A stretch of DNA of 64,000 nucleotides from Thermoanaerobaculia bacterium (GTDB taxonomy: Bacteria; Acidobacteriota; Thermoanaerobaculia; UBA5066; Gp7-AA6). Of this stretch, positions 1,685 through 55,488 are shown piece by piece; the stretch's first letter is position 1; every line of letters starts with the position of its first letter. The translations under genes and the position numbers were made by a program. The stretch spans positions 3,833 through 67,832 of the forward strand of contig DATBBK010000217.1 in NCBI GenBank assembly GCA_036271035.1, written 5' to 3'. The notes beneath the pieces were generated by a model. The model had not been told where the DNA came from. It did not search any database and saw only the letters and a program-made list of their open reading frames with translations.

Positions 1685-1846
1685 GACGGTGCGTTTCAGA
1701 CAACCCGGCGACTCTCGCCAGCGATCGTAGGGGCGGCCCTCGCGGCCGCCCGCTTCGAGGCGTTGGCCGGAGATTCCCTCTACGAAGCGAACAGAAGAGC
1801 CTCTATTAACTATTGTCGCGAGCCGGACCACCGGCGGCCGACAGGC

Positions 1847-36057: not shown

Positions 36058-37866
36058 ATGAACACCGATCTCGACATCAACGACTCCGTTCTCGCGCAGC
36101 TGCGCAGCGCCGCCGACATCGTCGAGGTCATCGGCGACCACACGCGCCTCAAGAAGGCCGGCCGCTCGTGGAAGGGCCTCTGCCCCTTTCACAACGAGCG
36201 CACTCCGTCCTTCACGGTCGACCGGGACAAGGGCCTGTACCACTGCTTCGGATGCGGCGCCGGCGGCGACGTCATCCACTTCGTCCGCCAGATCGACCGG
36301 CTCGAGTTCCCCGAGGCGGTCGAGGCGCTCGCGGGGCGCTTCGGCGTCTCGATTCCGCGGCGCGAGCGGCGCGGACCGCGCGAGGACCGGCGCGAGAAGC
36401 TTCTCGCCGCCGTCTCCGACGCTCAGCGCTTCTACTCCGAGCGCCTTTCGCGTCCCGGCAACGCCGCGGCGAGGTACCTCGAGGGCCGTGGCGTGGCGCC
36501 GGAGATATGGAAGGACTTCGCGCTCGGCCACGCGCCGGACGCGTGGGACTCGATCTCGAAGGCGCTCGGCGGCGCATATCCGGAAGATCTCCTCGTCGAG
36601 GCGGGGCTGCTCCAGCCGCGCGCCGAGGGCAAGGGCCCGGGCTCCTACGATCGCTTCCGCGACCGGCTCCTCTTCGTCGTGCGCGACGAGCGCGGGCGCC
36701 CCGTCGGCTTCGGCGGCCGCACGCTCTCGCCCGACGGCGAGCCGAAGTACCTGAACTCGCCGGAGTCGCCGCTCTTCTCGAAGAAGCGGCTCCTCTACGG
36801 CCTGTCCGATGCGCGCGAGGCGATCCGCAAGCGTGACCGCGTCGTCCTCGTGGAGGGGTACTTCGATCACCTGGCGCTGTGGCGCGCCGGCATCCACGAG
36901 ACGGTCGCGTCGATGGGCACCGCGCTGACGCCGGAGCAGACCGAGAAGCTCCGCCGCCTGACGTCGTCTGCGGTGATCTGTTATGACGGCGACGCTGCCG
37001 GACGCAACGCGACGCACGCCGCGCTCGCGCTGCTGCTCGGCCACGGGTTCGCGGCGCGCGCCGCGCGGATGCCGCTGGGCGAGGATCCGGACGACGTGCT
37101 CCGCCGCGAGGGCGCCGAGGCGCTCGCCGCGCGGATCGACGAGGCGGCCGACGCGCTGACGTGGCTCATCGAGGACGTGCGGCCCGAGGAGCCGGGCCTC
37201 GAGCCTGCCGAGAAGCGGGCCCGCCTCGGCCGGATCCTCGACGTCCTCTCGGCGATCCCCGACCGGATCCTGCGTTACGAGGAGTACCGCCGGCTCTCGG
37301 AGGCCGTTGCGGTCCCGCTCGAGGTGCTCTGGGGAAGCCAGAAGGAGGCGCCGAGGGCGCCCCGGCCGGCCCCGCCGGGAGCGGGAACGGAGGGGAATAG
37401 AGCCGCGTTATCCGAGAAGCCGGCCCCGCCCCTGGAGAGGCGATTGTTGCAGTACCTGGCGGCCGGCAGAGAGCTCAACTCTCTGATTCTAGGGGCTTTG
37501 AGAGAAGAATGGGTGACGGATCCCCGGGTTGCGCGGATCGTGACGGCATTTCGAAAGGCCTCGGCGCGCCCCGAAGTGGTTGATTTTCAGGGCCAGATCG
37601 CAGACCTTACGGAGGAAGATCGCACGTTTCTCTCCGGTATCGCGCTGGATGAATTTTCCGAGCCGACCGAGAAGGGCGTCGATCAGCTCCTCAAAGACCT
37701 GGAAACGAAGCACCTCGAACGGGAGAGCCTTGATTTGACCAGTGCGATCAAACAGGGCGAAGCACGGGGCGGGAGCGAGATTGACGAGCTGATCCGGATG
37801 AAGCAGGAAAAGGCCCGGCGCATCGCAAAGCTCAAGTCGCGGAAAGGAAACGAAGTTGGCCATTGA
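36058..37866 (+). CDS. dnaG: DNA primase
   Basis: zinc-binding [11 protein letters not shown]...CFGCG, Toprim domain (LVEGYFD, YDGDAAG). Confidence 0.9.
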
Positions 37867-39613: not shown

Positions 39614-39786
39614 GCAAGTCCCGCGGCGAAGAAGTCGCTTACGAAACGCAGCATCCCGCAAGTCGGGCCTGCGTCTTCGATGGGGTCAGGTCTTCGGTTT
39701 TCGGAGCTCGAGGTCTTCGTGGCGTCGTCGCTCTCGCGTCGTCGCTCCGAAAACACGAACAGCTGACCCCGAGTCCGGCATCCGGT
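39614..39786. repeat. ~170-nt conserved structured intergenic element, copy A (downstream of rpoD, upstream of tRNA-Met)
   Basis: about 75% identical to 42861..43036; shared 11-bp long-range stem GTTTTCGGAGC/GCTCCGAAAAC enclosing a variable loop; shared blocks AGTCCCGCGG, CTTCGATGGGGTCAGGTCTYCGG, CGGCATCCGGT. Confidence 0.6.
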
Positions 39787-39829
39787 AAGTGCCGGGTTGG
39801 CGTTCGGGGTCGGTTTGTTATATTCATCG

Positions 39830-39903
39830 GGGTCCATAGCTCAGCGGTCCAGAGCCACCGGCTCATAACCGGTCAGACCCCGGTTCGAATCCGGGTGGAC
39901 CCA
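39830..39903 (+). tRNA. tRNA-Met (anticodon CAT; elongator-type), CCA not encoded
   Basis: acceptor GGGTCCA/TGGACCC, anticodon stem ACCGG with loop CTCATAA, T-arm CCCGG-TTCGAAT-CCGGG; followed by a terminator. Confidence 0.85.
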
Positions 39904-42860: not shown

Positions 42861-43024
42861 GCGAGTCCCGCGGCTGCTAAGTCGCTCATGGAACGAACCA
42901 GCCCGCGAGTCCGGCCTGCGCGCTTCGATGGGGTCAGGTCTCCGGTTTACGGAGCTCTTGACGCGCGCGGCAAGTCGCTGTTCGGTCGTCGCTCCGAAAA
43001 CGCGGACACCTGACCCCGAGCGCG
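42861..43024. repeat. ~170-nt conserved structured intergenic element, copy B (downstream of divIVA)
   Basis: about 75% identical to copy A (39614..39786); preceded by a GGGGCGGGGC/GCCCCCGCCC hairpin; continues into the tandem array. Confidence 0.6.
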
Positions 43025-43125
43025 GCATCCGGTCAACAGCCGCACGGCATCCGGTTAAGAGCTGCGCGGCATCCGGTCGACAGCGGCACGGCATCCGGTT
43101 AAGAACCGCACCGCATCCGTAGAAT
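43025..43125. repeat. tandem direct repeats, 22-nt unit x ~4.5 (GCATCCGGTYRASAGCNGCRCG), alternating two unit variants, abutting the hutI start
   Basis: units at 43025, 43047, 43069, 43091 plus a degenerate unit at 43113; the unit is the amplified terminal motif (GCATCCGGT) of the 170-nt element. Confidence 0.7.
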
Positions 43126-43131
43126 GCCACC

Positions 43132-44406
43132 GTGACTTCGCCTCGCTCCTTCGCGGTCCGGAACATCGGCACTCTCGCGACGCCTCTCGGGCACAGCGCG
43201 CGCGTCGGTCGAGACCAGGGTGCCATCTACCGCATCCACGATGCCGCGCTGCGCGCCGACAACGGCCGCATCGTCTTCGTCGGGACCGAGGCGGACTACC
43301 GCCGCGAGTTCTCCGGCCGCGCCGCGGACGAGGAGCTCGACGCCGGCGGCCGCGCCGTCATTCCCGGCCTCGTCGACGCGCACACGCATCCGATCTGGCT
43401 CGGCGACCGCGGCGTCGAGATCGGCCGCCGGCTCGCCGGCGAGAGCTACGCCGCAATCGCCGCGGAGGGTGGCGGGATCCAGGCGACGGTCCGCGCGACG
43501 CGCGCCGGCTCCGACGCACAGCTGCGCGACGCGACCGCGGCCCGGCTGGCCCGCATGCGCGCGCACGGCACGACGACAGCCGAGGCGAAGTCCGGCTACG
43601 GGCTCGAGGAGGAGCAGGAGATCCGCGCGCTGCGCCTTCTGAAGGCGCTCTCGGGCGAACCGGGTCTGCCGCGGCTCGTACCGACGCTCCTCGCCGCGCA
43701 CGAGATTCCCGCCGAGTACCGCGACGACCGCGGCGAGTGGATCCGGATCATCGTCGACTCGATCATTCCGCGTGTCGCTCGGGAGGGGCTCGCGGCGTAC
43801 TGCGACGTCTTCTGCGAGGAGGGCGTCTTCACCGTGGAGGAGTCGCGCCGCATCCTGACCGCGGCGCGCCGCGCGGGGCTCGGGCTTCGGGTCCACGCCG
43901 ACGAGCTCGCGCGCTCCGGCGGCGCGATGCTCGCGGCCGAGCTGTTCGCCGCATCCGCGGACCACCTCCTCTTCATCGAGGCGGCCGAGATCCGCGCGCT
44001 CGCTCGCGCCGGCACCGTCGCCGTGGTGCTCCCCGGGACCGCATGGTGGATGCGTTCGCGCCGCGCCCCCGCGCGGGCGCTGGTCGAGGCGGGCGTGCCC
44101 GTCGCGGTCGCATCCGACTCGAACCCAGGAACCTGCAACACGGAGTCCCTCGCCGCGGTCGCGGCGCACGCGTGCCTGGACTCGGGCCTCTCCGTGGAGG
44201 AGACGCTGACCGGCATCACCCTCAACGCCGCCGCCTCGCTCGGTCTGGCCGCGGAGATCGGCTCGCTCGAGCCCGGGAAGGCCGCGGACCTCGTGGTGCT
44301 CGACGCCCCCGACGACCGCCACCTCATCTATCATTGGGGCACGAACCTCGCCCGTCACGTGGTCGTCGGCGGGCGGATCGGCGCGCCGGTGATCCCGAAG
44401 GAGTAG
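43132..44406 (+). CDS. hutI: imidazolonepropionase
   Basis: amidohydrolase metal-binding motifs (DAHTHP, HADE, ASDSNPG) and HutI-wide similarity. Confidence 0.85.
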   Translation: MTSPRSFAVRNIGTLATPLGHSARVGRDQGAIYRIHDAALRADNGRIVFVGTEADYRREFSGRAADEELDAGGRAVIPGLVDAHTHPIWLGDRGVEIGRRLAGESYAAIAAEGGGIQATVRATRAGSDAQLRDATAARLARMRAHGTTTAEAKSGYGLEEEQEIRALRLLKALSGEPGLPRLVPTLLAAHEIPAEYRDDRGEWIRIIVDSIIPRVAREGLAAYCDVFCEEGVFTVEESRRILTAARRAGLGLRVHADELARSGGAMLAAELFAASADHLLFIEAAEIRALARAGTVAVVLPGTAWWMRSRRAPARALVEAGVPVAVASDSNPGTCNTESLAAVAAHACLDSGLSVEETLTGITLNAAASLGLAAEIGSLEPGKAADLVVLDAPDDRHLIYHWGTNLARHVVVGGRIGAPVIPKE

Positions 44407-45437: not shown

Positions 45438-48041
45438 ATGCCGGAGGCCCGCCCGACCCTCTACCTGATCGACGCCATGTCGAACTTCCACCGGGCGTAC
45501 CACGCGATCCAGCGCCTCTCGACCTCCGCTGGCAAGCCGACCAACGCCGTCTACGGGTTCGTGACCATGCTCCGGAAGCTGATGCGCGAGCACTCCCCCG
45601 ACCTGGTCGCCGTCGCCTGGGACGGCCCCCAGCGCACCCAGCGCCACGAGGCGTACGCCCAGTACAAGGCGAATCGGGTCGCCATGGCGGACGACCTCGC
45701 CTCGCAGATCCCGGACGTCCGCGAGGTCCTCGACGCGTACCGAATCCCGATCCTCGAGCTGCCCGGCTATGAGGCCGACGACGTCATCGGCACCCTCGCG
45801 ACGCGCGGCGCCGCGGACGGCTACGACGTCGTCATCGTGACGGCCGACAAGGACATGCTCCAGCTCGTCAACCCGCGCGTCCGGGTCTTCCACACCGGCA
45901 AGGAGATGTTCCTCGACGAGGCGGGCGTCGAGACCTTCTTCGGCGTGCGGCCCGGACAGGTGGCCGACGTGCTCGCGCTCATGGGCGACAGCGTCGACAA
46001 CGTGCCCGGCGTGCCGGGCGTCGGGCAAGTCACGGCGAAGAAGTGGATCTCGCAGTACGGGAGCCTCGCCGCGCTCCTCGAGCGCGCCGCCGAGATCAAG
46101 GGCAAGGTCGGCGAGAGTCTGCGCCAGAACACCGAGTCGGCGCTGCTGTCCCGTCGGCTCGTCGGCATCCCGACGGATCTCCCGATCCCGTTCGACAAGA
46201 ACTCGCTGCGGCGGTCGGAGCCCGACTCGTCGCGGCTCAAGGAGATCTTCGTCCGCCTCGAGTTCCACTCGCTGGCCGCCGAGATCCAGGGCGAGTCCGC
46301 CCGGCCGCCCGAGGTCTCCGCGCGCCGGCTCGCACCGGGGGAGGCGTTCCCGCGGACCGACGGCCGCACCGGCGTGGCGCTCCTGAATCGCGGCGACCGG
46401 GTCCTCCTCGCGATCTCCGACGGAAGCGAGTCCGTCGTCGCCGAGGACACGGCTGCCGAGGTGCTGAAGCTCTGGGGCGCGGCCGACCGTCCGGGCGCGC
46501 GCTTCGCCATGGCCGACGCGAAGCCGCTCGAGAAGCACCTGCTCCGAGCCGGCAAGGCGATCGCCGGCGACATGTTCGACGTCTGCCTCGCGCAGTACGT
46601 GCTCTCCCCCGGTGTCGGCAGCTCCGAGGTCGAGCCGATGGCGTTCCAGCGCCTCGGCCAGCAGCTCATCGCCGACAAGGAGGCGAGCGTCGCCGGCTGC
46701 GAGCTGCCGGACGCGTACCAGATCGAGCAGGCGGACCGGTGGCTCGCGGAGCGTTCGTCCGCGTCGCTCGCGCTCGCAGACCCGCTCGCCTCCGAGCTCG
46801 CGGCGCGTCCGGAGCTCGACCGCATCTATAGAGACATCGAGCGGCCGCTCACGCGCGTGCTCGCTCGCATGGAGCTCGCGGGCGTCGCAATCGACCTCGC
46901 TCTGCTCGCCGAGATCTCCGAGCGCATGGAGCGCCAGCTCCGCGATCTCGAGGGACGGATCTGGGCGGAGGCCGGCGAGGAGTTCAACGTCAACTCGCCC
47001 GTCAAGCTCGCGCAGATCCTGTTCGAGAAGCTCGGTTACCCCGTCCTGAAGAAGACGGCCAAGACGCGGACGTCCTCGACGGGTTTCGAGGTCCTGAACG
47101 AGCTGTCGGAGCGCGGCTTCACGCTGCCCAAGCTCTTGCTCGAGTTCCGCGAGATCTCCAAGCTCAAGGGCACGTACGTGGACGCGCTCCCGCAGCTCGC
47201 GGACGCGGAGGCGCGCGTGCACACGTCGTTCCGGCAGACGGTCGCCGCGACGGGCCGCCTCTCCTCGTCGGATCCGAACCTGCAGAACATCCCCATCCGC
47301 ACCGAGGCCGGACGCGAGATCCGCAAGGCGTTCGTCGCGCCGCCCGGCCGCAGGCTCGTCGTCGCCGACTACTCCCAGATCGAGCTGCGCATCCTCGCGC
47401 ACATGTCGGGCGACTCGGCGCTGATCCGCGCGTTCGAGGAGGGCCAGGACATCCACCGCGCCACGGCGGCGAAGATCTTCGGCGTCGCGCCCGACCTCGT
47501 CAGCCACGAGATGCGATTCGCCTCGAAGCGCATCAACTTCGCGCTGCTGTACGGAATGGCGGCGTTCACCCTCGGCAAGGAGCTCGGCGTGTCGACGCAC
47601 GAGGCGAAGAGCTACGTCGACTCGTACTTCGCCCAGTTCCCGAGCGTGCGCGCGACGCTGGACGGCATCGTCGAGAACGCAAGGAAGACGCGCGAGGTCA
47701 CGACGCTCTTCGGCCGCGTGCGGCCGATCCCGGACATCGTCGCGTCGAACCCGGCCGTCCGGTCGAACGCGGAGCGCATGGCGCTCAACGCGCCGTTTCA
47801 GGGCACGGCGGCGGACGTGATCAAGATCGCGATGGTGCGCCTCGACGCGGCGCTCCCGAAGGCGGGACTGTCGGCGCGGGTGGTGCTCCAGGTCCACGAC
47901 GAGCTCGTCCTCGAGGCGCCGGAGGCGGAGGTCGTGGAGGTTTCGCGGGTGGTCGTCGAGGAGATGGAGGGCGCGGCGAGCCTGAAGGTCCGCCTCGCAG
48001 TCGACATCGGATCCGGGAGGAACTGGCTCGAGGCCAAGTGA
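45438..48041 (+). CDS. polA: DNA polymerase I (5'-3' exonuclease, inactive-looking 3'-5' exo region, polymerase domain)
   Basis: family-A motifs A/B/C (DYSQIELR, RRxAKxxNFGxxYG, QVHDELVLE) and N-terminal 5' nuclease. Confidence 0.9.
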   Translation: MPEARPTLYLIDAMSNFHRAYHAIQRLSTSAGKPTNAVYGFVTMLRKLMREHSPDLVAVAWDGPQRTQRHEAYAQYKANRVAMADDLASQIPDVREVLDAYRIPILELPGYEADDVIGTLATRGAADGYDVVIVTADKDMLQLVNPRVRVFHTGKEMFLDEAGVETFFGVRPGQVADVLALMGDSVDNVPGVPGVGQVTAKKWISQYGSLAALLERAAEIKGKVGESLRQNTESALLSRRLVGIPTDLPIPFDKNSLRRSEPDSSRLKEIFVRLEFHSLAAEIQGESARPPEVSARRLAPGEAFPRTDGRTGVALLNRGDRVLLAISDGSESVVAEDTAAEVLKLWGAADRPGARFAMADAKPLEKHLLRAGKAIAGDMFDVCLAQYVLSPGVGSSEVEPMAFQRLGQQLIADKEASVAGCELPDAYQIEQADRWLAERSSASLALADPLASELAARPELDRIYRDIERPLTRVLARMELAGVAIDLALLAEISERMERQLRDLEGRIWAEAGEEFNVNSPVKLAQILFEKLGYPVLKKTAKTRTSSTGFEVLNELSERGFTLPKLLLEFREISKLKGTYVDALPQLADAEARVHTSFRQTVAATGRLSSSDPNLQNIPIRTEAGREIRKAFVAPPGRRLVVADYSQIELRILAHMSGDSALIRAFEEGQDIHRATAAKIFGVAPDLVSHEMRFASKRINFALLYGMAAFTLGKELGVSTHEAKSYVDSYFAQFPSVRATLDGIVENARKTREVTTLFGRVRPIPDIVASNPAVRSNAERMALNAPFQGTAADVIKIAMVRLDAALPKAGLSARVVLQVHDELVLEAPEAEVVEVSRVVVEEMEGAASLKVRLAVDIGSGRNWLEAK

Positions 48042-48074
48042 CCTGCGCGGCCGCGCCTCGCTCGGCATTCGCAG

Positions 48075-48362
48075 CTCATCCCGAGCGAGGCGAAAGATCC
48101 GCGAGTCGACACGCGGTGACGGCAAAGAAGGCGAACCCGTTCGGCCTTCGCCGGTCATCCCCAGCCCGCAGGCCAGAGGAATTCCTTTCGTAGCGGAAGC
48201 AGCGTCCGCGGATCATCCGAGCGCGAGGGATGCCCGAGTCCAGGCGGAGGATGGAGTCGATGTGGTGCGTCATCCTGAGCGAAGCGACGGATCCCCGAGT
48301 CGACACGAGAGAACCGCGAGGAAGCCGGGGATCCTTCGCCGCTGCGCGGCTCAGGATGACGC
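48075..48362. repeat. cluster of 2-3 palindromic MITE/REP-like repeats (half copies at ~48075-48105 and ~48211-48240; full copy 48270-48362 with TIRs GTCATCCTGAGCGAAGCGACGGATCC / GGATCCTTCGCCGCTGCGCGGCTCAGGATGAC)
   Basis: same family as 25109, 52846, 57039, 57884, 58950, 60057; shared inner motif GAGTCGACACG. Confidence 0.7.
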
Positions 48363-48568
48363 GCAAGTGGACAGCTGGAGGACCCTGTTCCTCTTCCCGG
48401 CGTAAGAGAGGGTCCTGATGCCATCGCGTCCCGGTCTGAGCAGGTCATCCGCAGGACCGGGGTCCACCGCCTCTGTCTGGAAAAGAGATGCGCCCCGCCC
48501 CGATGGTCGCGGACCGGAAAATCGGTCGTCCGAGCGACGATTTCTTCCCGCTATACTTCCCCCGCCTC

Positions 48569-49564
48569 ATGCGACTGAGAACACGGGCCTCGACGGTCGC
48601 GGCCGCTTTCGCCGCGCTGCCGCTCGCGAGCCTTCTGGCTCAGGCGCCGCCCGCGCCGACGCCCGCGCCCGAGGTCACGCTGCCGCCGGTCGAGGTTCCT
48701 GCGACCGGTTCGGTGGCGCCTGGGACCACGCCGCCGCCTCCCGCCGCGGTTCCACCGGTCGGACCGACGCCGGTTCCGGCCGCGACGGCGCTCCGGATCG
48801 TCGAAACGCCGGTCGTCTCGGTCGCGAAGCTCCCCGCCGAGAATCCGTTCGGCAGCACGCCCCAGGTGCCCGCCGCGCTCCCGCAGAAGCTTCCGTTCAA
48901 CGACGCGACCGTCTCGTCCGGGTTCTTCGTGTCGATTCACGTCGATCCGGCGGGACGCGCGGTGATGGCGCGGCGCGAGCGCGATCCCATTCCGTCGCTC
49001 GCCGCCGAGACGCTGAAGTCGCTCCAGCGCTGGACCCTGATTCCGGCGCGGCGAGGCGGCCAGCCCGTCGACACGTGGGGCGCATACCGCCTCGAATTGT
49101 CGGTCGAAGTGCGCTCGCCGAAAATCGCGCAGCTCTCGCTCACGCCGGTCGCGCCGACCGCGGCGCTTCCGAAGCCGTTCGACTGGCCGAACGAGACCGC
49201 GTGGCTCGACTCGCGCAAGACGGCGACGCCGACCGACGGCACGGTGCCGATCGTCGAGGTCGACACCGCGCCGATGCCGCAGAAGACGCCGTGGTCCGCC
49301 GACTCCTACAGGGGAACGTTCTCGGTCAAGTATTGGGTCAAGGTGGACAAGGCGGGCCGGATCGAGAAGGCGATCCCAATCGACGTGAGCGACCCGGTCC
49401 TGCTGTCGTACTTCCGCCAGGCGATGAACGGCTGGATCCTCAAGCCCGCAATGGCGGGCGGCGCGCCGGTCGCGACCTGGAACGAGCTCTCGCTGTCGGG
49501 AACCGTCTCGTACTCGGTCGACCTGAAGCAGATCTCCGCGCTGCGGAGGCCGATCGGGTCATAA
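48569..49564 (+). CDS. secreted Pro-rich protein with two TonB-C-like domains
   Basis: signal peptide MRLRTRASTVAAAFAALPLASLLAQA; Pro-rich linker; two C-terminal modules resembling the TonB C-terminal fold. Confidence 0.45.
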   Translation: MRLRTRASTVAAAFAALPLASLLAQAPPAPTPAPEVTLPPVEVPATGSVAPGTTPPPPAAVPPVGPTPVPAATALRIVETPVVSVAKLPAENPFGSTPQVPAALPQKLPFNDATVSSGFFVSIHVDPAGRAVMARRERDPIPSLAAETLKSLQRWTLIPARRGGQPVDTWGAYRLELSVEVRSPKIAQLSLTPVAPTAALPKPFDWPNETAWLDSRKTATPTDGTVPIVEVDTAPMPQKTPWSADSYRGTFSVKYWVKVDKAGRIEKAIPIDVSDPVLLSYFRQAMNGWILKPAMAGGAPVATWNELSLSGTVSYSVDLKQISALRRPIGS

Positions 49565-49568
49565 GCAC

Positions 49569-49588
49569 ATATTAGCTACGGCTAATAT
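49569..49588. promoter_or_regulatory. palindrome ATATTAGC-tacg-GCTAATAT (core ATTAGC-N4-GCTAAT)
   Basis: perfect 8-bp arms; same core as 61055..61070; lies in the convergent intergenic region between the TonB-like gene and selB. Confidence 0.3.
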
Positions 49589-49693
49589 ATCCTCGGTCCT
49601 CGCGTTACCGAGACGAACGTCCGTGCGCAGCCCGTCCCCAGGCTTCGCGATCCTTCTAGCGGGTGCGGAGGGGAGAGGACCCTTCTCTTAGGC

Positions 49694-51592
49694 TCAGCTC
49701 TTGACGATCTCCCGCTTGTCTCCCACGCGGCGCGTGACCTTGGTCGCGTCGAGGTGCTCGAGCAGCGGGATCGCGAGCTTGCGAGTGAGACGGAACATCT
49801 CCTTGAACTCCGGGACGTCGAGCGAGCTCCGGCCTGACGCGCGCAGGCGCGAGGCGACGCCGTCCACGGCCTCCTTCGACATGATCCAGCCGCCGGGCAG
49901 CCGGATGAGCGCGCCGCGCTTGACGAGATAGGCGACGAGGCCCTCGACGACCTTCTGCCGGTGGGAGAGCGTCAGCGCGGCCTCCGCGGGCGACGGCGGA
50001 TCGAGGCCGCGGTCCGCGTAGAGCTTCGCGATGCGCCCGGCGAGGTCGCGCTCCGGCGTGGGCAGGTCGTCGCGGCCCGGCGCGCGCGCCTCCTCGCCGG
50101 CGACGACGATGGCGCCGCGCGCGACGAGCGCGGCCTCGATCGCCTCCGCCCAGCGCGCGTCGGCGCCGGGAACGAGCCGCTGCAGGAGCGTCCGCCGCGA
50201 CGCGCCGATGGAGCCGGCTCCGGACGACGCCAGGCTCTCGATCTCGGACGCGGCGCGCGATGCGAGACGCGCCAGCGGCGCCTCGGCGACGTAGCGATCC
50301 GGCGTGCGGCGCAGCACGTGGATCACCTTCTTCGAGATGGGATCCCGCAACGCGTCGCGGACCGCATCGGCCGAGGTCCCGGCGCGGCGCGCCAGCTCCT
50401 CGTCGGACACGCCGCGCTCGCGCGCCTCCTCGATCCAGACGAGGAGCCGCTCCGTCGCCGAGCCGCTCTCGAGGCGGGCCAGGCGCTCCGTTCGCGCCGC
50501 GTCCGCGCGGCCGCGAGCTGCGGCCGGCAGCGGGTCGAGCACGACGCCCCCGCCGATCGTCTCGACGGGCGACAGCCTGCGGATGACGAAGCGATCGCCG
50601 GGCACCGCGGCGATGGGTTCGACGAGGCGCAGCTCGACTATGGCGCCGGAGCCCGGAGCGATCTCGCGACCCGCGAGCGAGCGCACGCGTGCGCGCGACT
50701 CCGACGCGAAGTGATGGAACGCGACCCGGTCGCCGTTGCGAAGGACACGCGAGCCGGGAAGCAGATCGAGCCGCGCGAGGATTCTCTTCGTGACGGGCAG
50801 CGCGTCCGGCGGCGCGAGCGTCTGGCCGCGACGAAGGTCCGCGAGCTCGACGCCAGCCAGGTTGGCGCTCACGCGCTCGCCGGCGCGCGCCTCGGCGACC
50901 TCGCGCCCGTGGACCTCCACCCGGCGGACACGCACCGGCTTCCGGTCCGGCAGGAGCTCGAGTTTCTGCTCGCGCGAGACCGCGCCCGAGACGAGGCTGC
51001 CCGTGATGACCGGACCGAAGCCCGGGATCGAGAAGGCGCGGTCGATCGGCAGGCGCGGCGGGCGCTCGTCCCGCTCGGTCGCGGCCGTCTCGGCGAGGGT
51101 GACGAGGATCGCCTTCAGCTCTTCGATCCCCTCGCCGGTTTTGGCGGAGACCGGCGCGACCGGCGATCCCTCGAGAAACGAGCCGGCGACCAGGTCGCGC
51201 ACGTCCGAGATCGTGACCGCCACGAGGTCCGAGGGCACGCGGTCGATCTTCGTCACGGCCACCGCACCGGTGCGGATCCCGAGCATGCGGACGATCTCGA
51301 AGTGCTCGCGCGTCTGCGGCATCACCGACTCGTCGGCCGCGACCACCAGCAGGACCGCCTGGATCCCGCCCGCGCCGGCGAGCATGTTGCGCACGAACCG
51401 CTCGTGGCCGGGCACGTCGACGAACGAGAAGCTGACGCCGCCCCACTCCGCGTGGGCGAACCCGAGGTCGATCGTGATTCCGCGACGCTTCTCCTCGGGC
51501 AGGCGGTCGGCGTCGATGCCGGTTAGCGCCTTGACCAGCGCGGTCTTCCCGTGGTCGATGTGTCCGGCGGTGCCGATGAGAAACCGCTTCAC
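49694..51592 (-). CDS. selB: selenocysteine-specific elongation factor SelB
   Basis: GTP-binding motifs ([18 protein letters not shown]), EF-Tu-like domains II/III and C-terminal winged-helix SECIS-binding domains. Confidence 0.85.
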
Positions 51593-51783
51593 GCAGAAAG
51601 AATGTCACGAAGCCGACAGGCTGCGGCGCCGGGCGGACGGCGGCCAGGCGGGCGGCGGCGCGAGACGTCGGGGCGCTCTGCGGTTCTCCGACGCGCCGTC
51701 CGGCTGGCCTGCCGGTGCCCTGTTCCTCCGGCATCATCGCCTTGAGGTGTCGACCTCGCCGCGCTTGCGATAGCCTCCCGCCC

Positions 51784-52224
51784 ATGCAGATGTCCCGCTT
51801 CGAAGACGACCTCAAGACCGCCATGAAGAGCGGTGACAAGCGACGCGTCGCGACCCTGCGTCTCGTCCTCGCCGCGCTCAAGAACGAGCGGATCCAGGCC
51901 GGCCGCGACGTGACGGCCGAGGAGGTCGACGCCGCCCTGCGCCGCGCCGTCAAGCAGCGCAAGGACTCGATCGAGCAGTACACGAAGGGCGGACGGCAGG
52001 ATCTGGTCGACGCCGAGACCGAGGAGCTCGCGATCCTGGAGGGCTACCTTCCGAAGGGAATGACCGACGACGAGGTCGAGGCGGCGCTCAAGGCGGTCAT
52101 CGCCGAGAAGGGCCTCTCGTCCTCGCGCGACGTCGGTCTCGCGATGAAGGAGCTGATGGCGCGCCACAAGGGGAGCGTCGACGGAAAGAAGGCGCAGGAG
52201 ATCGCCCGGCGTCTGCTGCCGTGA
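51784..52224 (+). CDS. GatB/YqeY domain protein
   Basis: YqeY-like helical protein (DDLKTAMKSGDKRRVATLRLVLAALKN...). Confidence 0.7.
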   Translation: MQMSRFEDDLKTAMKSGDKRRVATLRLVLAALKNERIQAGRDVTAEEVDAALRRAVKQRKDSIEQYTKGGRQDLVDAETEELAILEGYLPKGMTDDEVEAALKAVIAEKGLSSSRDVGLAMKELMARHKGSVDGKKAQEIARRLLP

Positions 52225-52838
52225 GATCCGCCGACTCCGCGCCTCCCGATCCGGCGGCTCCGAGCGGCAGCCGGACCGGCCGGGACGAGATCGAGATCAA
52301 GCTGCCCGCCGCGGATCTCGCGGCCGTCCGTGCACGGTTGCGCGACGGCGGCGCGACGCCGAAGTCGCCGGAGCATGCCGAGGTCGACGACCTCTATGAC
52401 GACCGCGAGCGGCGACTCTCCGCGAGCGGCCGCGCGCTCCGTCTCCGCCGCGCCGGTGGCCGCGCGATCCTGACCTACAAGGGTCCCGCGCGCTTCCAGG
52501 CCGGAGCGAAGATCCGCGAGGAGCGAGAGGTCGGCGTCGACGACCCGGAGGAGGCGGCGGCGATCCTCGAGCGCCTCGGATTCGAGCGGCGCTTCCGCTA
52601 CGAGAAACGCCGCGAGGAGTGGACCTGGGAGGACTGCGTGATCGCGCTCGACGCGACTCCGATCGGGACGTTCGTCGAGATCGAGGGCGACCCGGCGGCG
52701 ATCCGGCACCTGGTGACTCGGCTCGGCCTCGACGCCGCCGAGGCGATCCCGTACTCGTACGCCGAGCTCTACGTGCGCCGCCGCAAGGAGCAGCCGTCGC
52801 TTCCTCCGGACATGGTCTGGGAGACGGAGAAGGCGTGA
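52221..52838 (+). CDS. CYTH domain protein (class IV adenylyl cyclase / triphosphatase-like)
   Basis: N-terminal EIEIK motif and the alternating acidic/basic beta-strand pattern of CYTH (EVDDLYDD...RLR...ILTYKG...REE). Confidence 0.75.
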   Translation: MRSADSAPPDPAAPSGSRTGRDEIEIKLPAADLAAVRARLRDGGATPKSPEHAEVDDLYDDRERRLSASGRALRLRRAGGRAILTYKGPARFQAGAKIREEREVGVDDPEEAAAILERLGFERRFRYEKRREEWTWEDCVIALDATPIGTFVEIEGDPAAIRHLVTRLGLDAAEAIPYSYAELYVRRRKEQPSLPPDMVWETEKA

Positions 52839-52845
52839 ATTACTT

Positions 52846-52931
52846 GTCATCCCGAGCGGAGCGAGGGACCCCTTTCAGGGTCCCGTTTCGGCGCCGAAAA
52901 GAATTCCTCTCCACTTCGCTCCTCGGGATGA
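52846..52931. repeat. palindromic MITE/REP-like repeat copy (TIRs GTCATCCCGAGCGGAGCGAGGGACCCC / ...CTTCGCTCCTCGGGATGAG)
   Basis: starts 8 nt after the CYTH stop; contains internal palindromes GGGACCC-N6-GGGTCCC and TTTCGGCGCCGAAA. Confidence 0.65.
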
Positions 52932-53075
52932 GGAAGGTCCTTACGGCGCCCCGCGGGTGCGAATGGGAGATGAGCCCGACGGCATGGCTTGCTCGTCATC
53001 TCCAATCCAGCCGATGAATGCCGTCCAGCGGGCGGGGGCAAGCCCAGCCCCGACGACGGTCTACTCCTCGGCACG

Positions 53076-54104
53076 ATGAGGGCGATCCTTCTCTGCGCCG
53101 GGCGCGGCGTGCGGTTTCGTCCCGTGACCGAGCGCATCCCGAAGCCGCTCGTTCCCTTCCTCAACGTGCCGCTCGCGTCGGCGCACCTGCGCCGGCTTCA
53201 TGAGGCCGGCGTCGGCGAGGTAGCCGTTAATCTTCATCACCTCCCCGATGAGATCGAGGGCCACCTGCGCGAGCCGGCTCCGGGCCTGCCACAGCTCGCG
53301 TTTTTCCGCGAGCCGCAGATCCTCGGTACCGCCGGCGCTCTGCGCAATGCGGCGGAGTTTCTCGCGACGGACGACTTCCTGGTGGTCAACTCCGATGCCG
53401 CACTCGCCGCCGACTACGCCGGCCTCGTCGCCGCGCACCGCGCCTCCGGCCGCCCCGCGACGCTTCTCGTCGTCCAGAACCGGGAGCCGGAGCGCTACAC
53501 GCCGCTTCAGTCCAAAGGGGACCGCATCACGGCCTTCGGCGTCCGTGGACCAGATCCTCTCCTCTACACCGGCATCTGCGTTCTCGGCCCCGGGCTTTTG
53601 GAGCGGATCCCCGCCGGCGAGAGGGCGCTCGTCGCCGATCTCTGGCAGCCGCTTCTCGACTCCGGAGAAGAGATCGGCTTCGTGAGACACGACGGCCCGT
53701 TCGCCGATCTCGGCCGCGCGGGCGATTTCCTCCGCGCTTCGCTCGAAGCGCTCGCGCGCGGCGGAACGTTCCCCGCCGGCGCCGGCGCGTTCGACCGGAT
53801 GCGGCGCGTCCTCCACACGGCCGATCTGCCCGCGAACGTCGAGACGGCCGCCGCGGTCATCGGCGACGCCCGGGTCGGAAGCGGCGCCTCCGTCGTTCGG
53901 TCCGCCGTTTGGAGCGGGTGCCGCGTCGGGGACGGCGCCCGGCTCGACGGCTGCCTCCTCGCGCGCGGGCGCGTTCCCGCCGGGGCGCACTATCGCGAAT
54001 CCCTTCTCTGGGCGGACTCGCCGGGCGGCGACGTCGCCGTCCTTCCCCTCGATGATGACTCGCGGAGGGCTCATGGATTCCAGCCTCTCTCCCCGCGCCG
54101 GTAA
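53076..54104 (+). CDS. sugar-phosphate nucleotidyltransferase with C-terminal left-handed beta-helix domain
   Basis: N-terminal G-x-G-x-R motif LLCAGRGVRFRP, then an NTP-transferase fold and LbH-like repeats. Confidence 0.7.
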   Translation: MRAILLCAGRGVRFRPVTERIPKPLVPFLNVPLASAHLRRLHEAGVGEVAVNLHHLPDEIEGHLREPAPGLPQLAFFREPQILGTAGALRNAAEFLATDDFLVVNSDAALAADYAGLVAAHRASGRPATLLVVQNREPERYTPLQSKGDRITAFGVRGPDPLLYTGICVLGPGLLERIPAGERALVADLWQPLLDSGEEIGFVRHDGPFADLGRAGDFLRASLEALARGGTFPAGAGAFDRMRRVLHTADLPANVETAAAVIGDARVGSGASVVRSAVWSGCRVGDGARLDGCLLARGRVPAGAHYRESLLWADSPGGDVAVLPLDDDSRRAHGFQPLSPRR

Positions 54105-54685
54105 AAGAGGATCCGGACCTTCGCCGTCCTTCCGTACACGCGCACGACACCCATGCGGTCGTGGCCGTCCCAGAGATAGACGGATCCGGGCGTGCTCTCC
54201 CCGAGCGGGCTGAACGAACAGATGTCGGAGCTGTTGAACCGGATCGGATCGTCGATTCGGTCGAGGTAGCCCGACCCGGACGGATCGGGGACGCGGACGC
54301 CGGTCATGATCGCCGGCAGGACGTCGTTGCGCGACCAGGGAATCGAGACTCCGAGATATCGGTCGACGCCGCTGTCGATCTCGGCCGTCCTGACGCCGTT
54401 GCCGTTGCGGTCCGCGTAGAGCGCCCACTCGTAACGGTCGCCGTTGCGCCGGAACTTCAGGCCGACGTTGCGGTTCTGCGAGATGGCGTAGCTGCGCGCC
54501 ATGAAGAACGCGACGGTCGTCTCGTGCGCGGCCGATCGGATGGCGACGGACTGGCGGAGGTCGAGGACGCTCGGCGTCGCGAGCAGCAGGACGAAGTTCG
54601 CGAGGATCACGCCGACGAGCAGATCGAGAGCGGTGAAGCCGGCGTCGCGGCGGTCCGGGCGATGGAAAAGGGGCCCGGGGCCCAT
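54071..54685 (-). CDS. type IV pilus/T2SS minor pseudopilin (GspH/FimT-like)
   Basis: prepilin N-terminal methylation motif (RRDAGFTALDLLVGVILANFVLLLA) after ATG 54685. Confidence 0.6.
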   Translation of the reverse strand: MGPGPLFHRPDRRDAGFTALDLLVGVILANFVLLLATPSVLDLRQSVAIRSAAHETTVAFFMARSYAISQNRNVGLKFRRNGDRYEWALYADRNGNGVRTAEIDSGVDRYLGVSIPWSRNDVLPAIMTGVRVPDPSGSGYLDRIDDPIRFNSSDICSFSPLGESTPGSVYLWDGHDRMGVVRVYGRTAKVRILFYRRGERGWNP

Positions 54686-54708
54686 CGGGCCCCGGGCGGG
54701 CGAAGCGG

Positions 54709-55110
54709 TCACCGTCCCTTGCCCGCGGAGACGGCGTTGGAGGGCTTCTCGCTCGCCGCCGAGGGAGAGGAACGGCGAGAAGAAGTGGAGAGGCGAACCT
54801 TGGCGTGGATCGTCGTGGGACCGTTGACGGCGAGATACGGCTTGAGGCTCGCGTAGAGCTTCTCCCCGATCCCCTTCACCTCCATGAGCTCCTCGGTGCG
54901 GGTGAAGGGCTTCTCCTTGCGGCGCTCGACGATGCGATCGGCGACCTTCGCGCCGACGCGCGGAAGATACGCGAGCTCCGCGGCCGTCGCGGTGTTGATG
55001 TTGACCTTCTTGCCGGACTCCTTCTCGGCGTCCTCGGCGAACGCGAGCGCCGAGAGACCCGTGCAGAGGAGCAGGGCCAGGCAGGCGACACGGATTCGGG
55101 ATGCGGTCAT
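54709..55110 (-). CDS. comEA: ComEA-like helix-hairpin-helix DNA-binding protein
   Basis: signal peptide + HhH motif (VNINTATAAELAYLPRVGAKVADRIVERR...ELMEVKGIGEKL). Confidence 0.7.
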   Translation of the reverse strand: MTASRIRVACLALLLCTGLSALAFAEDAEKESGKKVNINTATAAELAYLPRVGAKVADRIVERRKEKPFTRTEELMEVKGIGEKLYASLKPYLAVNGPTTIHAKVRLSTSSRRSSPSAASEKPSNAVSAGKGR

Positions 55111-55488
55111 GTGCGTCTCCATTTCGAGTCGTTGCGATGTCTCGATGTCGTAGCGATGACGTGAGCGAGATTCGGGAAAGAGTTCTTCGTTGCATTCGTG
55201 TGTCCTCATCGGCTTCCTGACGATCAGGCGTTCTCCATCGGCACCTCCTTTCGAAGGAGGCGTGGATCGCGAGCGGCGTGCCGGGACGCGGCGTGGTGAT
55301 GAAGTGGCCGAGCGGGAAGCACTTAGCGCCGTCGCCGCGCGTCCGGCTCGAGTCGCGGACCGTCAAGAAATTCGACGCCCGCGCCGGCCGCCGCGGTGTT
55401 TCGCGCGCGAGGTGCGCCGCGCCGGCGCCGTCAACGCAACTTGTCGGGTGTCCGTTTTCTTGTCGGTGTGCCGTGTAGACTCCGCCGG

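What the first reader, a model, noticed from the sequence alone, without database searches (positions are those of the whole stretch)
48075..48362. Abundant palindromic MITE/REP-like family (at least 8 copies in 64 kb) with ~26-nt TIRs, always inserted a few nt after the stop codon of + strand genes
The copies sit at 25109, 48075-48362 (clustered), 52846, 57039, 57884, 58950 and 60057. Each begins 4-20 nt after the stop codon of the hemerythrin-like gene, polA, the CYTH gene, ubiA, the dNK gene, panB or panC. The TIR consensus is GTCATCCYGAGCGAAGCGAMGGATCC, with rc GGATCCTTCGCTTCGCTCAGGATGAC. The inner segments are variable but often contain GAGTCGA(C/A)ACG. All copies are in the core half of the window and none is in the proposed island. 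They can form ~90-120-nt hairpins, which makes them candidates for terminators or mRNA stabilisers. They also generate spurious ORFs such as VILSEAKDP.
Basis: seen in the sequence. Interest (0 to 1): 0.6.

Follow-up and report, generated by a model that had tools for sequence, protein, structure and literature searches.

The report
Hairpin repeat pairs recognised by Ssn nucleases
The repeats are real intergenic hairpin pairs, but they belong to an already described class: the single-stranded-DNA recognition hairpins that flank small GIY-YIG "Ssn" nuclease genes in many bacterial phyla, here present as gene-less doublets.

Summary
Seven intergenic sites in the window carry the palindromic element, 86-122 nt long, with arms GTCATCCYGAG..GGATCC and their reverse complement. 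The polA-downstream site also holds three degenerate single arms. Chance expectation for the arm is 0.

The element is not a lineage-specific MITE. The exact 26-nt arm occurs in more than 120 species genomes from about 12 phyla. Each arm is itself a small hairpin with a GTC tag, a 5-bp stem starting AT, a GA/GA internal loop, a GC-GAA-GC mini-hairpin and a 3' C. Compensatory changes support this fold.

Small GIY-YIG genes of about 95 aa, sampled independently by protein, carry such arms upstream in 81% of loci, downstream in 73% and on both sides in 60%. Shuffled controls give 4%, 7% and 0%. A 338-bp unit, L126, has exactly the window's arm on both sides of the gene.

This matches the Ssn nuclease / Ssn-related-motif (SRM) system of Chenal et al. 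2025 and the CGTC-tagged REP superfamily of Di Nocera et al. 2013. The window copies are ORF-less inverted doublets, gained or lost at orthologous sites in related Thermoanaerobaculia. The published SRM regex misses this variant. No ssn gene lies in the window. A terminator role is unsupported.

Verdict: new member of a known kind, moderate-to-low interest.

The parts
25109..25230 (.). Inverted doublet of 122 nt. The left arm (25109-25140) is the long-loop variant GTCAACCTGAGGAGCGGAGCGACGAAGGATCC. The right arm (25205-25230) is the reverse complement of GTCATCCCGAGCGATAGCGAGGGATC. It starts 3 nt after the hemerythrin stop, between convergent genes, and abuts a GTAG-type REP.
48075..48100 (+). 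Degenerate solo left arm CTCATCCCGAGCGAGGCGAAAGATCC. The tag is mutated to CTC and there is no partner arm. It lies 33 nt after the polA stop.
   Evidence: no significant fold, z 0.04
48155..48236 (+). Two further degenerate left-arm-like units: GTCATCCCCAGCCCGCAGGCCAGAGGAATTCC, and ATCATCCGAGCGCGAGGGATGCC followed by CGAGTCC. They form a tandem array of arms, as seen in relative L205.
   Evidence: my reading of the sequence; L205 array
48269..48360 (.). Complete inverted doublet of 92 nt. The left arm (48269-48294) matches the consensus exactly. The right arm is 48330-48360.
   Evidence: (RNA -49.7 kcal/mol, z -5.45)
52846..52931 (.). Inverted doublet of 86 nt, of the ATCCC/GGGAC arm variant, 7 nt after the CYTH stop.
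57039..57150 (.). Inverted doublet of 112 nt, 15 nt after the ubiA stop. The clean arm is at 57126-57150 (- strand motif). The other arm is irregular, with an internal duplication. The spacer orientation is opposite to the other copies.
   Evidence: (I8, I9)
57884..57977 (.). Inverted doublet of 94 nt, 37 nt after the dNK stop. The left arm (57884-57909) matches the consensus exactly. The right arm (57947-57977) has a longer inner hairpin. The doublet is nested in an outer palindrome, 57855-57883 with 57978-58006.
   Evidence: I19; z -5.75
58950..59057 (.). Inverted doublet of 108 nt, 21 nt after the panB stop. The left arm (58950-58980) is the long-loop variant. The right arm is 59032-59057.
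60057..60143 (.). Decayed inverted doublet of 87 nt, 19 nt after the panC stop and 27 nt before the thiG start. The outer end of the right arm is mutated to GGGGTGGG.

Best explanation
The elements are gene-less inverted doublets of an Ssn-related motif (SRM). This is a REP-like DNA hairpin which, in its single-stranded form, serves as the recognition site of small single-domain GIY-YIG "Ssn" nucleases.

Each arm reads (C/T)GTC | ATCCT-GA-GC-GAA-GC-GA-AGGAT | C. That is an unpaired GTC tag, a 5-bp outer stem beginning A,T, a GA/GA internal loop, a GCGAAGC mini-hairpin (replaced in some copies by a longer inner hairpin) and a 3' C. Full-length units elsewhere are arm - ssn ORF (about 95 aa) - inverted arm. 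The window copies are the same two arms with a 34-70-nt spacer instead of the ORF, which makes them a REPIN/MITE-like non-autonomous form. They occupy gaps between a stop codon and the next gene's promoter, and they are gained or lost on the time-scale that separates relatives whose PanC proteins are 79-87% identical to the window's.

By extension from the Neisseria and Wolbachia enzymes, a cognate Ssn would bind the folded arm only when the DNA is single-stranded, for example during replication, repair or incoming transforming or conjugative DNA. It would nick a few nt 5' of the GTC tag. In a doublet this gives one site per strand at the two outer borders.

Shown here: the anatomy, the covariation, the cross-phylum distribution, the GIY-YIG association and the site polymorphism. 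Shown by others: ssDNA-specific binding and cleavage for NTS-type SRMs. Inferred: that this arm variant has a cognate Ssn in the source genome, and that Ssn drives the spread of the doublets.
For: - **Arm hairpin.** On arms collected beside GIY-YIG genes, 99.2% of cells are paired and 4 of 7 pairs show double changes. None of 500 shuffles reaches this, and slid controls give 21-52% paired. The variant table agrees. The DNA fold gives exactly this structure.
- **Distribution.** The exact 26-mer occurs in more than 120 stretches of species genomes. These include Acidobacteriota, Gemmatimonadota, Chloroflexota, Verrucomicrobiota, Bacillota, Patescibacteria, Bacteroidota/Chlorobiales/Ignavibacteria, Alpha-, Beta- and Gammaproteobacteria, Myxococcota, Planctomycetota and Bifidobacterium, including genomes of 34-46% GC.
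- **Neighbouring protein family.** Among the repeat-ascertained loci, GIY-YIG is the only family that is both shared across phyla and adjacent to the arm. It occurs in 6 of 120 loci, in 4 of them within 70 nt of the matched arm.
- **Independent sampling by protein.** Of 75 GIY-YIG loci, 61 have a GTC-hairpin upstream, 55 have an inverted one downstream and 45 have both. Shuffled controls give 3, 5 and 0.
- **Full-length units.** L126 1467-1804 is a 338-bp unit carrying exactly the window's arm on both sides, and the ORF stop is the TGA of GGATGAC. L039 4291-4938 is a further example.
- **Protein identity.** The proteins match PF01541 GIY-YIG. They are 43-60% identical to proteins flanked by literal NTS-type arms.
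- **Published system.** SsnA (cd10448, 94 aa) binds and cuts NTS hairpins as ssDNA only. The GTC tag governs cleavage and the 3' C governs binding. The NTS-ssnA-NTS architecture is IS-like (PMC11893778).
- **Related repeat class.** CGTC/TGTC-tagged REPs have stems starting AT, occur as inverted dimers and have no associated transposase (PMC3733652).
- **Site polymorphism.** Orthologous ubiA-dNK, panB-panC and panC-thiG gaps are 9, 34 and 13 nt in L205, but hold doublets in the window, L204 and L207.
Against: - No ssn/GIY-YIG gene lies in the 64-kb window. The rest of the source genome could not be searched.
- The arm does not fit the published degenerate SRM search pattern.
- I could not compare directly with N. 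meningitidis SsnA or with CDD cd10448. Family membership rests on homology to proteins flanked by NTS-type arms.
- No biochemical data exist for this arm variant.
- Ssn is only known as a nuclease, and no strand-transfer or mobility activity has been shown. The presence/absence pattern could reflect deletion as well as insertion.
- The relatives are too diverged to define exact breakpoints.
Confidence: 0.75

Rival explanations
1. The doublets act mainly at the RNA level. On this view they are Rho-independent terminators or 3' stabilising hairpins selected for that function.
For: The doublets lie 3-37 nt after stop codons. As RNA they fold strongly, at -42 to -56 kcal/mol, with z-scores down to -5.75. 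From general knowledge, E. coli REPs are known to stabilise upstream mRNA.
Against: - No T/U tract follows any copy, and none is called terminator-like.
- There is no Rfam family match.
- The 26-nt arm sequence is identical across phyla and across genomes of 34-70% GC. A generic hairpin function does not require that.
- The covariation supports the small intra-arm hairpin rather than only the long inter-arm helix.
- Orthologous sites are empty in relatives, so the element is dispensable there.
- SsnA does not bind RNA (PMC11893778).
- An RNA effect could still exist as a by-product.
Confidence: 0.12
2. The elements are classical REP/REPIN elements mobilised by a RAYT (a Y1 HUH tyrosine transposase).
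For: The architecture is REPIN-like, with two inverted hairpin units and a spacer. GTAG-type REPs do coexist in this lineage.
Against: - The arms carry a GTC tag, not a GTAG tag.
- CGTC-tagged REPs were found not to flank any tyrosine transposase (PMC3733652).
- The only protein family that is shared across phyla and sits next to the arm is GIY-YIG.
Confidence: 0.05
3. The elements are ordinary MITEs, internal-deletion derivatives of a DDE-transposase insertion sequence with 26-bp terminal inverted repeats.
For: The elements have terminal inverted repeats, are small, are multicopy and show presence/absence at orthologous sites.
Against: - No target-site duplication flanks any of the seven copies (my inspection).
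- No long element with these ends and a DDE transposase appeared among 120 repeat-centred loci.
- Each "TIR" is itself a conserved hairpin with covariation.
- The same arm occurs in about 12 phyla, which is unlike any IS-specific MITE.
Confidence: 0.03

Closest known systems
Ssn-related motifs (SRM), including the Neisseria NTS/dRS3 repeat, and their GIY-YIG Ssn nucleases (cd10448); Chenal et al., Nat Commun 2025, PMC11893778
   Same: The motif is an oriented hairpin repeat with a conserved GTC immediately 5' of a palindrome that starts AT, and a C immediately 3'. It is almost entirely intergenic and multicopy, and it is found across phyla. It flanks a single-domain GIY-YIG gene of about 95 aa on both sides in inverted orientation.
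   Different: - The stem-loop differs. Ours has a 5-bp stem, a GA/GA internal loop and a GCGAAGC or longer inner hairpin. NTS has a continuous 8-9-bp stem, ATTCCCGCG/CGCGGGAAT.
- The published search pattern HGTCWYN(0-2)YYVSBRHN(0-5)WNVSBRGN(0-2)RNCYNB does not match our arm. It hits only 4 of my 84 GIY-YIG loci.
- The window holds only ORF-less doublets.
- No biochemistry or phenotype is known for this variant or for this lineage (Thermoanaerobaculia-like).
CGTC-tagged REP superfamily (includes Neisseria dRS3 and Rickettsia RPE-4/RPE-6); Di Nocera et al., BMC Genomics 2013, PMC3733652
   Same: There is an unpaired CGTC/TGTC tag at one end. The stem starts with complementary A and T. A short C-rich tail follows. 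Inverted dimers with 20-100-bp spacers predominate. No associated transposase is known.
   Different: - The described families have 8-9-bp perfect stems and 4-5-nt loops. Ours has non-canonical GA pairs and a 3-nt GAA loop, or a variable inner hairpin.
- The described host range was 5 phyla, mainly alpha-Proteobacteria. This variant is commonest in the Acidobacteriota and Gemmatimonadota hits.
REPINs and RAYTs (Bertels & Rainey 2011, PMC3116915)
   Same: A non-autonomous doublet of two inverted REP hairpins forms a long hairpin. It sits in intergenic regions and is associated with a single-gene nuclease-type partner that is itself flanked by the repeats.
   Different: The tag is GTAG and the partner is a Y1 HUH transposase. 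REPIN-RAYT systems are lineage-specific and vertically inherited, whereas this arm is identical across phyla.

Membership tests
Ssn-related motif (SRM) repeats | A hairpin-forming imperfect palindrome of 20-50 nt | tested here: met
   The intra-arm structure is 99.2% paired, with 4 of 7 pairs showing compensatory changes and 0 of 500 shuffles reaching this. The DNA fold of the window arms gives the same structure.
Ssn-related motif (SRM) repeats | A conserved GTC immediately 5' of the palindrome (important for cleavage, gives orientation) and a C immediately 3' (important for binding) | tested here: met
   GTC and the 3' C are invariant in the 18 distinct arms of A3. They are present in all non-degenerate window arms.
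Ssn-related motif (SRM) repeats | A match to the published degenerate search sequence HGTCWYN(0-2)YYVSBRHN(0-5)WNVSBRGN(0-2)RNCYNB | tested here: not met
   The regex matches NTS but not CGTCATCCTGAGCGAAGCGAAGGATCCGC or the ATTGC and ATTCT variants. Its only hit in the window, 37516-37545(-), is unrelated.
Ssn-related motif (SRM) repeats | The motif flanks genes for single-domain GIY-YIG (Ssn) proteins of about 94 aa, often on both sides | tested here: met
   This holds for this arm type in other genomes: 61, 55 and 45 of 75 loci (upstream, downstream, both) against 3, 5 and 0 when shuffled. Examples are L126, L039 and L009. The proteins match Pfam GIY-YIG. There is no ssn gene in the window itself.
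Ssn-related motif (SRM) repeats | The associated protein belongs to the Ssn clade (CDD cd10448; homologous to N. meningitidis SsnA) | tested here: inconclusive
   No CDD library or SsnA sequence was available. Indirect evidence: the proteins are 43-60% identical (E 1e-18 to 1e-39) to proteins flanked by literal NTS-type arms. The nearest PDB matches are the UPF0213 GIY-YIG proteins 1zg2 and 1ywl.
Ssn-related motif (SRM) repeats | The motif is bound and cleaved by the cognate Ssn only as ssDNA, on one strand, a few nt upstream of the motif | not testable with these tools
   This needs enzyme assays. It has been shown only for the Neisseria and Wolbachia pairs (PMC11893778).
CGTC-tagged REP superfamily | An unpaired CGTC/TGTC tag, a stem beginning with complementary A and T, and a short tail | tested here: met
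   The window arms begin (C/T/A)GTC-AT.., and the arm is followed by C or CC.
CGTC-tagged REP superfamily | A stem of 8-9 bp and a loop of 4-5 nt | tested here: not met
   Our arm has 5 Watson-Crick pairs, 2 G/A positions, 2 GC pairs and a 3-nt GAA loop, or a longer inner hairpin.
REPIN/RAYT | A GTAG tag on the REP, and a flanked Y1 (HUH) transposase gene | tested here: not met
   The tag is GTC. The adjacent family found was GIY-YIG, and no Y1 family appeared among the shared clusters. RAYT was not searched for with a dedicated profile.
DDE-type MITE | TIRs plus a target-site duplication, and a parent IS with the same TIRs | tested here: not met
   No direct repeats flank the 7 copies (my inspection). 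The parent-like long form carries GIY-YIG, not a DDE transposase.
Intrinsic terminator | A GC-rich hairpin followed by a T/U run | tested here: not met
   None of the seven elements is among the terminator-like sites in 47000-61000, and no T-run follows them.

The most novel reading that the evidence does not exclude
Arm-ssn-arm units may be active, horizontally spreading mobile elements whose only protein is a GIY-YIG ssDNA nuclease of about 95 aa. That would be a new class of minimal insertion sequence, with doublets like those in the window as its MITE/REPIN-like passengers.

Several observations would then fit a selfish element moving between phyla rather than a domesticated, vertically inherited system:
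- The arm is identical over 26 nt in about 12 phyla, whatever the genome GC.
- The units are compact, down to 338 bp.
- Sites are gained or lost at orthologous positions.
- The protein family is very large: the search saturated at about 8000 proteins with E <= 1e-10.

The "GAG..CGA" arm class, which the published SRM pattern misses, would be the dominant class in environmental bacteria (4 of 84 loci match the pattern, against 78 of 84 for a generic GTC-hairpin).
Probability: 0.3. Interest if true: 0.65.

Novelty: new member of a known kind. Interest (0 to 1): 0.33.

Why it matters
For this window the result is mainly a correct label. The repeats are not a private MITE of this organism. They are copies of a pan-bacterial hairpin tied to the recently described Ssn ssDNA nucleases.

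Three practical consequences follow:
- Spurious ORFs such as VILSEAKDP and DPSLRSG, and apparent C-terminal extensions, should be masked.
- The published SRM search pattern under-detects this large arm class, so genome surveys of Ssn systems are incomplete.
- Thermoanaerobaculia-like genomes that carry both GTAG-REP and SRM doublets in the same intergenic "safe harbours" give a natural system for asking whether Ssn units are mobile and what they do outside Neisseria. Chenal et al. left that role open.

Tried and rejected
- **Known structured RNA.** Rfam at gathering thresholds over the whole window found only two tRNAs. A permissive scan over 56.9-60.3 kb gave only two sub-threshold chance hits, MIR1858 and SAH.
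- **Literature search by sequence string.** No hits. The searches "GIY-YIG + MITE" and COG2827/YhbQ/UPF0213 were also unproductive. My first label, "YhbQ-like", was imprecise: YhbQ is UPF0213, whereas Ssn is cd10448.
- **Source genome via PolA.** No exact protein is on record. dNK and panC gave only short contigs from JGI metagenome 3300036832. Taxon names came only indirectly, from panC homologues named Thermoanaerobaculia.
- **ssn gene in the window or in close relatives.** None in the window. The profile search of the protein database saturated, and no Thermoanaerobaculia name appeared in the top 120.
- **Phage vector for cross-phylum spread.** Only 8 arm hits and 3 ssn hits were found in IMG/VR, so there is no support.
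- **Generic "GTC + any 5-bp stem" scan of the window.** This is uninformative at 69% GC, with a background of about 126 hits. Only AT-start arms are meaningful.
- **Paper supplements.** None are held for the Ssn paper.
- **NCBIfam.** There is no model for these proteins.
- **Exact insertion breakpoints or target site.** The relatives are too diverged for this.

Full report
**1. Observation**

Core-motif and fuzzy searches recover the partner arms.

Reading each site gives seven complete inverted doublets:
- 25109-25230 (122 nt)
- 48269-48360 (92 nt)
- 52846-52931 (86 nt)
- 57039-57150 (112 nt)
- 57884-57977 (94 nt)
- 58950-59057 (108 nt)
- 60057-60143 (87 nt, decayed at its right end)

The polA-downstream cluster also holds a degenerate solo left arm at 48075-48100. 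By my reading of the sequence, two more arm-like remnants lie at about 48155-48236.

As RNA the doublets fold at -42 to -56 kcal/mol, with z-scores of -1.75 to -5.75. The solo 48075 unit does not fold significantly.

Pfam and the gene calls on identical metagenome contigs confirm the neighbours: hemerythrin, UPF0047, PolA, a TonB_C protein, CYTH, NTP_transferase, UbiA, dNK, PanB, PanC and ThiG.

The gaps from the upstream stop codon are 3, 33, 7, 15, 37, 21 and 19 nt, not 4-20. The gaps to the next gene, or to the convergent stop, are 27 to about 144 nt. All copies are intergenic. My crude gene map gives at least 71% coding, so seven independent intergenic placements have a chance probability of at most about 2e-4. 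The "+ strand" bias is uninformative, because almost all genes in that half are on the + strand and the element is nearly strand-symmetric. One copy, 57039, is inverted by its spacer (I8).

**2. What it is**

The hits cover Acidobacteriota (most of them), Gemmatimonadota, Chloroflexota, Verrucomicrobiota, Bacillota, Patescibacteria, Chlorobiales, Ignavibacteria, Bacteroidota, Alpha-, Beta- and Gammaproteobacteria, Myxococcota, Planctomycetota and Bifidobacterium. They include cultured isolates and genomes of only 34-46% G+C. A lineage-specific MITE cannot explain this.

Tabulating arm variants showed that positions 4-8 and 20-24 of a single arm co-vary: ATCCT/AGGAT, ATTCT/AGAAT, ATTCC/GGAAT, GTCCT/AGGAC, ATGCT/AGCAT and others. 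I then collected arms without requiring pairing, from loci ascertained by protein rather than by repeat. On these, the structure ...(((((..((...))..))))). is 99.2% paired, and 4 of 7 pairs show changes on both sides. None of 500 shuffles reaches this, and slid controls give 21-52% paired. The inner pair also co-varies (G11:C17 to A11:T17).

Each "TIR" is therefore itself a hairpin. It has a GTC tag, a 5-bp stem beginning A,T, a GA/GA internal loop, a GCGAAGC mini-hairpin (or a longer, variable inner hairpin such as GAG-GAGCGNAGCGAC-GA, a form also present in the window) and a 3' C. DNA folding of the window arms returns exactly this structure.

**3. The associated protein**

An all-against-all comparison of ORFs from the 120 repeat-centred loci found generic families (ABC ATPases, sigma factors, SDRs) at arbitrary distances from the arm. 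One small family sat right beside it. This is a GIY-YIG protein of about 95 aa, present in six loci from different phyla, in four of them within 70 nt of the matched arm. Several of its ORFs end inside a right arm (...DPSLRSG*), using the TGA of GGATGAC as the stop. It matches Pfam PF01541 at E 1e-11 to 1e-16.

As an independent test I sampled GIY-YIG relatives by protein pattern from metagenome contigs, which gave 576 relatives, of which the best 80 were kept. Of the 75 with enough flank:
- 61 have a GTC-tagged hairpin on the coding strand within 200 nt upstream.
- 55 have an inverted one within 170 nt downstream.
- 45 have both.
- Shuffled flanks give 3, 5 and 0.

The stem types found are ATTGC, ATTCT, ATCCT, ATTCC, ATCCC, ACCCT, ATGCT and others. 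L126 1467-1804 is a 338-bp unit with the window's exact arm on both sides of a 102-aa ORF. L039 4291-4938 is a 648-bp example from an Acidobacteriaceae MAG. The window itself has no such gene.

**4. Comparison with what is known**

Di Nocera et al. 2013 (PMC3733652) defined CGTC-tagged REPs. These have a CGTC/TGTC tag, a stem starting A,T, a short tail and mostly inverted dimers with 20-100-bp spacers. The paper states that they lack a dedicated transposase. The class includes Neisseria dRS3 and Rickettsia RPE-4/6.

Chenal et al. 2025 (PMC11893778) showed the following:
- The Neisseria NTS (CGTCATTCCCGCGMAVGCGGGAATCYRG) and related "Ssn-related motifs" flank genes for single-domain GIY-YIG proteins (SsnA, 94 aa, cd10448).
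- SsnA binds the hairpin only as ssDNA, not as dsDNA, RNA or the reverse strand. It cuts a few nt upstream.
- The three nucleotides 5' of the palindrome govern cleavage, and the C just 3' governs binding.
- The NTS-ssnA-NTS layout resembles an IS.
- In N. meningitidis the system lowers transformation by NTS-bearing DNA about five-fold. The role elsewhere is open.

The window arm has the GTC tag, the AT-start palindrome and the 3' C. GIY-YIG proteins flanked by it are 43-60% identical to those flanked by literal NTS-type arms. However, the arm does not fit the published degenerate pattern. That pattern hits only 4 of my 84 GIY-YIG loci, whereas a generic GTC-hairpin is present in 78. I therefore file the elements as a new member, and a distinct arm sub-class, of a known kind. 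The regex test failed, and the cd10448 and enzymology tests could not be run.

**5. Dynamics**

PanC homologues with 73-75% identity are named Thermoanaerobaculia. Five syntenic relatives (ubiA-dNK-panB-panC-thiG) show the same intergenic gaps in different states:
- Empty: L205 has gaps of 9, 34 and 13 nt. L206 and L207 have panC-thiG gaps of 9 and 26 nt.
- Occupied by SRM doublets: the window, L204 (ubiA-dNK) and L207 (panB-panC, a different arm variant).
- Occupied by an array of arms: L205 (dNK-panB).
- Occupied by an unrelated GTAG-type REP doublet: L204 and L208.

The elements are thus gained or lost at orthologous "safe" sites between a stop codon and the next promoter. Window copies share spacer sequence next to the arm (..CCGAGTCGACACG.., D9 and I8). 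This points to amplification of whole doublets. No target-site duplication is visible.

**6. Mechanism and rivals**

The best explanation (confidence 0.75) is that these are ORF-less inverted doublets of an SRM hairpin, and that a cognate Ssn recognises them on single-stranded DNA. With the tags outermost, the predicted nicks fall at the two outer borders, one on each strand. That last point is inference.

The rivals are weaker:
- An RNA terminator or stabiliser role: no T-runs, no terminator calls and no Rfam match.
- RAYT-driven REPINs: the tag is wrong and the associated protein is wrong.
- DDE-type MITEs: no target-site duplication, no DDE parent and hairpin arms.

Phages are not notable carriers.

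**7. Verdict**

What remains of interest:
- the arm is identical across phyla;
- this arm class escapes the published search pattern;
- it is still open whether arm-ssn-arm units are truly mobile.

Noticed in passing
window 1727-1772 (+) and 25235-25267 (motif on - strand): A second, unrelated repeat family is present. It consists of GTAG-tagged REP-like palindromes (GTAGGGGCGGCCC..GCGGCCGCCC). One of them directly abuts the SRM doublet at 25109-25230. Doublets of the same family fill the panB-panC and dNK-panB gaps of relatives L204 and L208 (I6, 8, 61, 82).
   Followed up: partly
window 57855-57883 and 57978-58006: The dNK-panB doublet is nested inside an outer 40-nt palindrome that is 75% complementary. 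It resembles a decayed GTAG-REP doublet or terminator-like hairpin, as if the SRM doublet had inserted into an existing hairpin (I19).
   Followed up: no
window 43020-43119: A tandem array of about 4.4 copies of a 22-nt unit (CGGCATCCGGTCAACAGCCGCA, alternating two subtypes as a 44-nt period) lies immediately upstream of ORF 43132-44406. A related GGCATCCGGT hairpin sits at 39773-39795, beside the tRNA at 39830-39903 (D2, 7, 66, 81).
   Followed up: no
window 57146-57174; also the sequences upstream of the panB, panC and thiG starts: -10-like boxes (TAGAAT, TATAAT) sit upstream of the dNK, panB and panC starts, and a weaker TATAAC-like box sits before thiG. The TAGAAT box before dNK is conserved in L204, L205 and L208. 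Before dNK the outer end of the right arm (ATGACG) lies 17 nt upstream of TAGAAT, giving the only sigma-70-like call in 47-61 kb. The geometry in L204 is similar, with about 16 nt between the two. The element end might supply a -35-like hexamer.
   Followed up: no
L205 2598-3121 (relative of the window, dNK-panB gap): Four tandem left arms of the variant GTCATCCCGAGGGCCGAAGGCCCGAGGGATCC are followed by one full right arm and a run of short GGGATGAC right-arm ends. This arm-array organisation resembles the degenerate cluster at window 48075-48360.
   Followed up: no
L126 1467-1804; P0121-P0240: The compact arm-ssn-arm unit is only 338 bp, and the ORF's stop codon is the TGA within the right arm's GGATGAC. 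The protein family is very large: the search saturated at about 8000 proteins with E <= 1e-10. Most of its members sit on very short contigs, which would be expected if assemblies break at the repeats.
   Followed up: partly
window 23993-24064 (-) and 39830-39903 (+): Two tRNA genes are the only Rfam gathering-threshold hits in the window.
   Followed up: no
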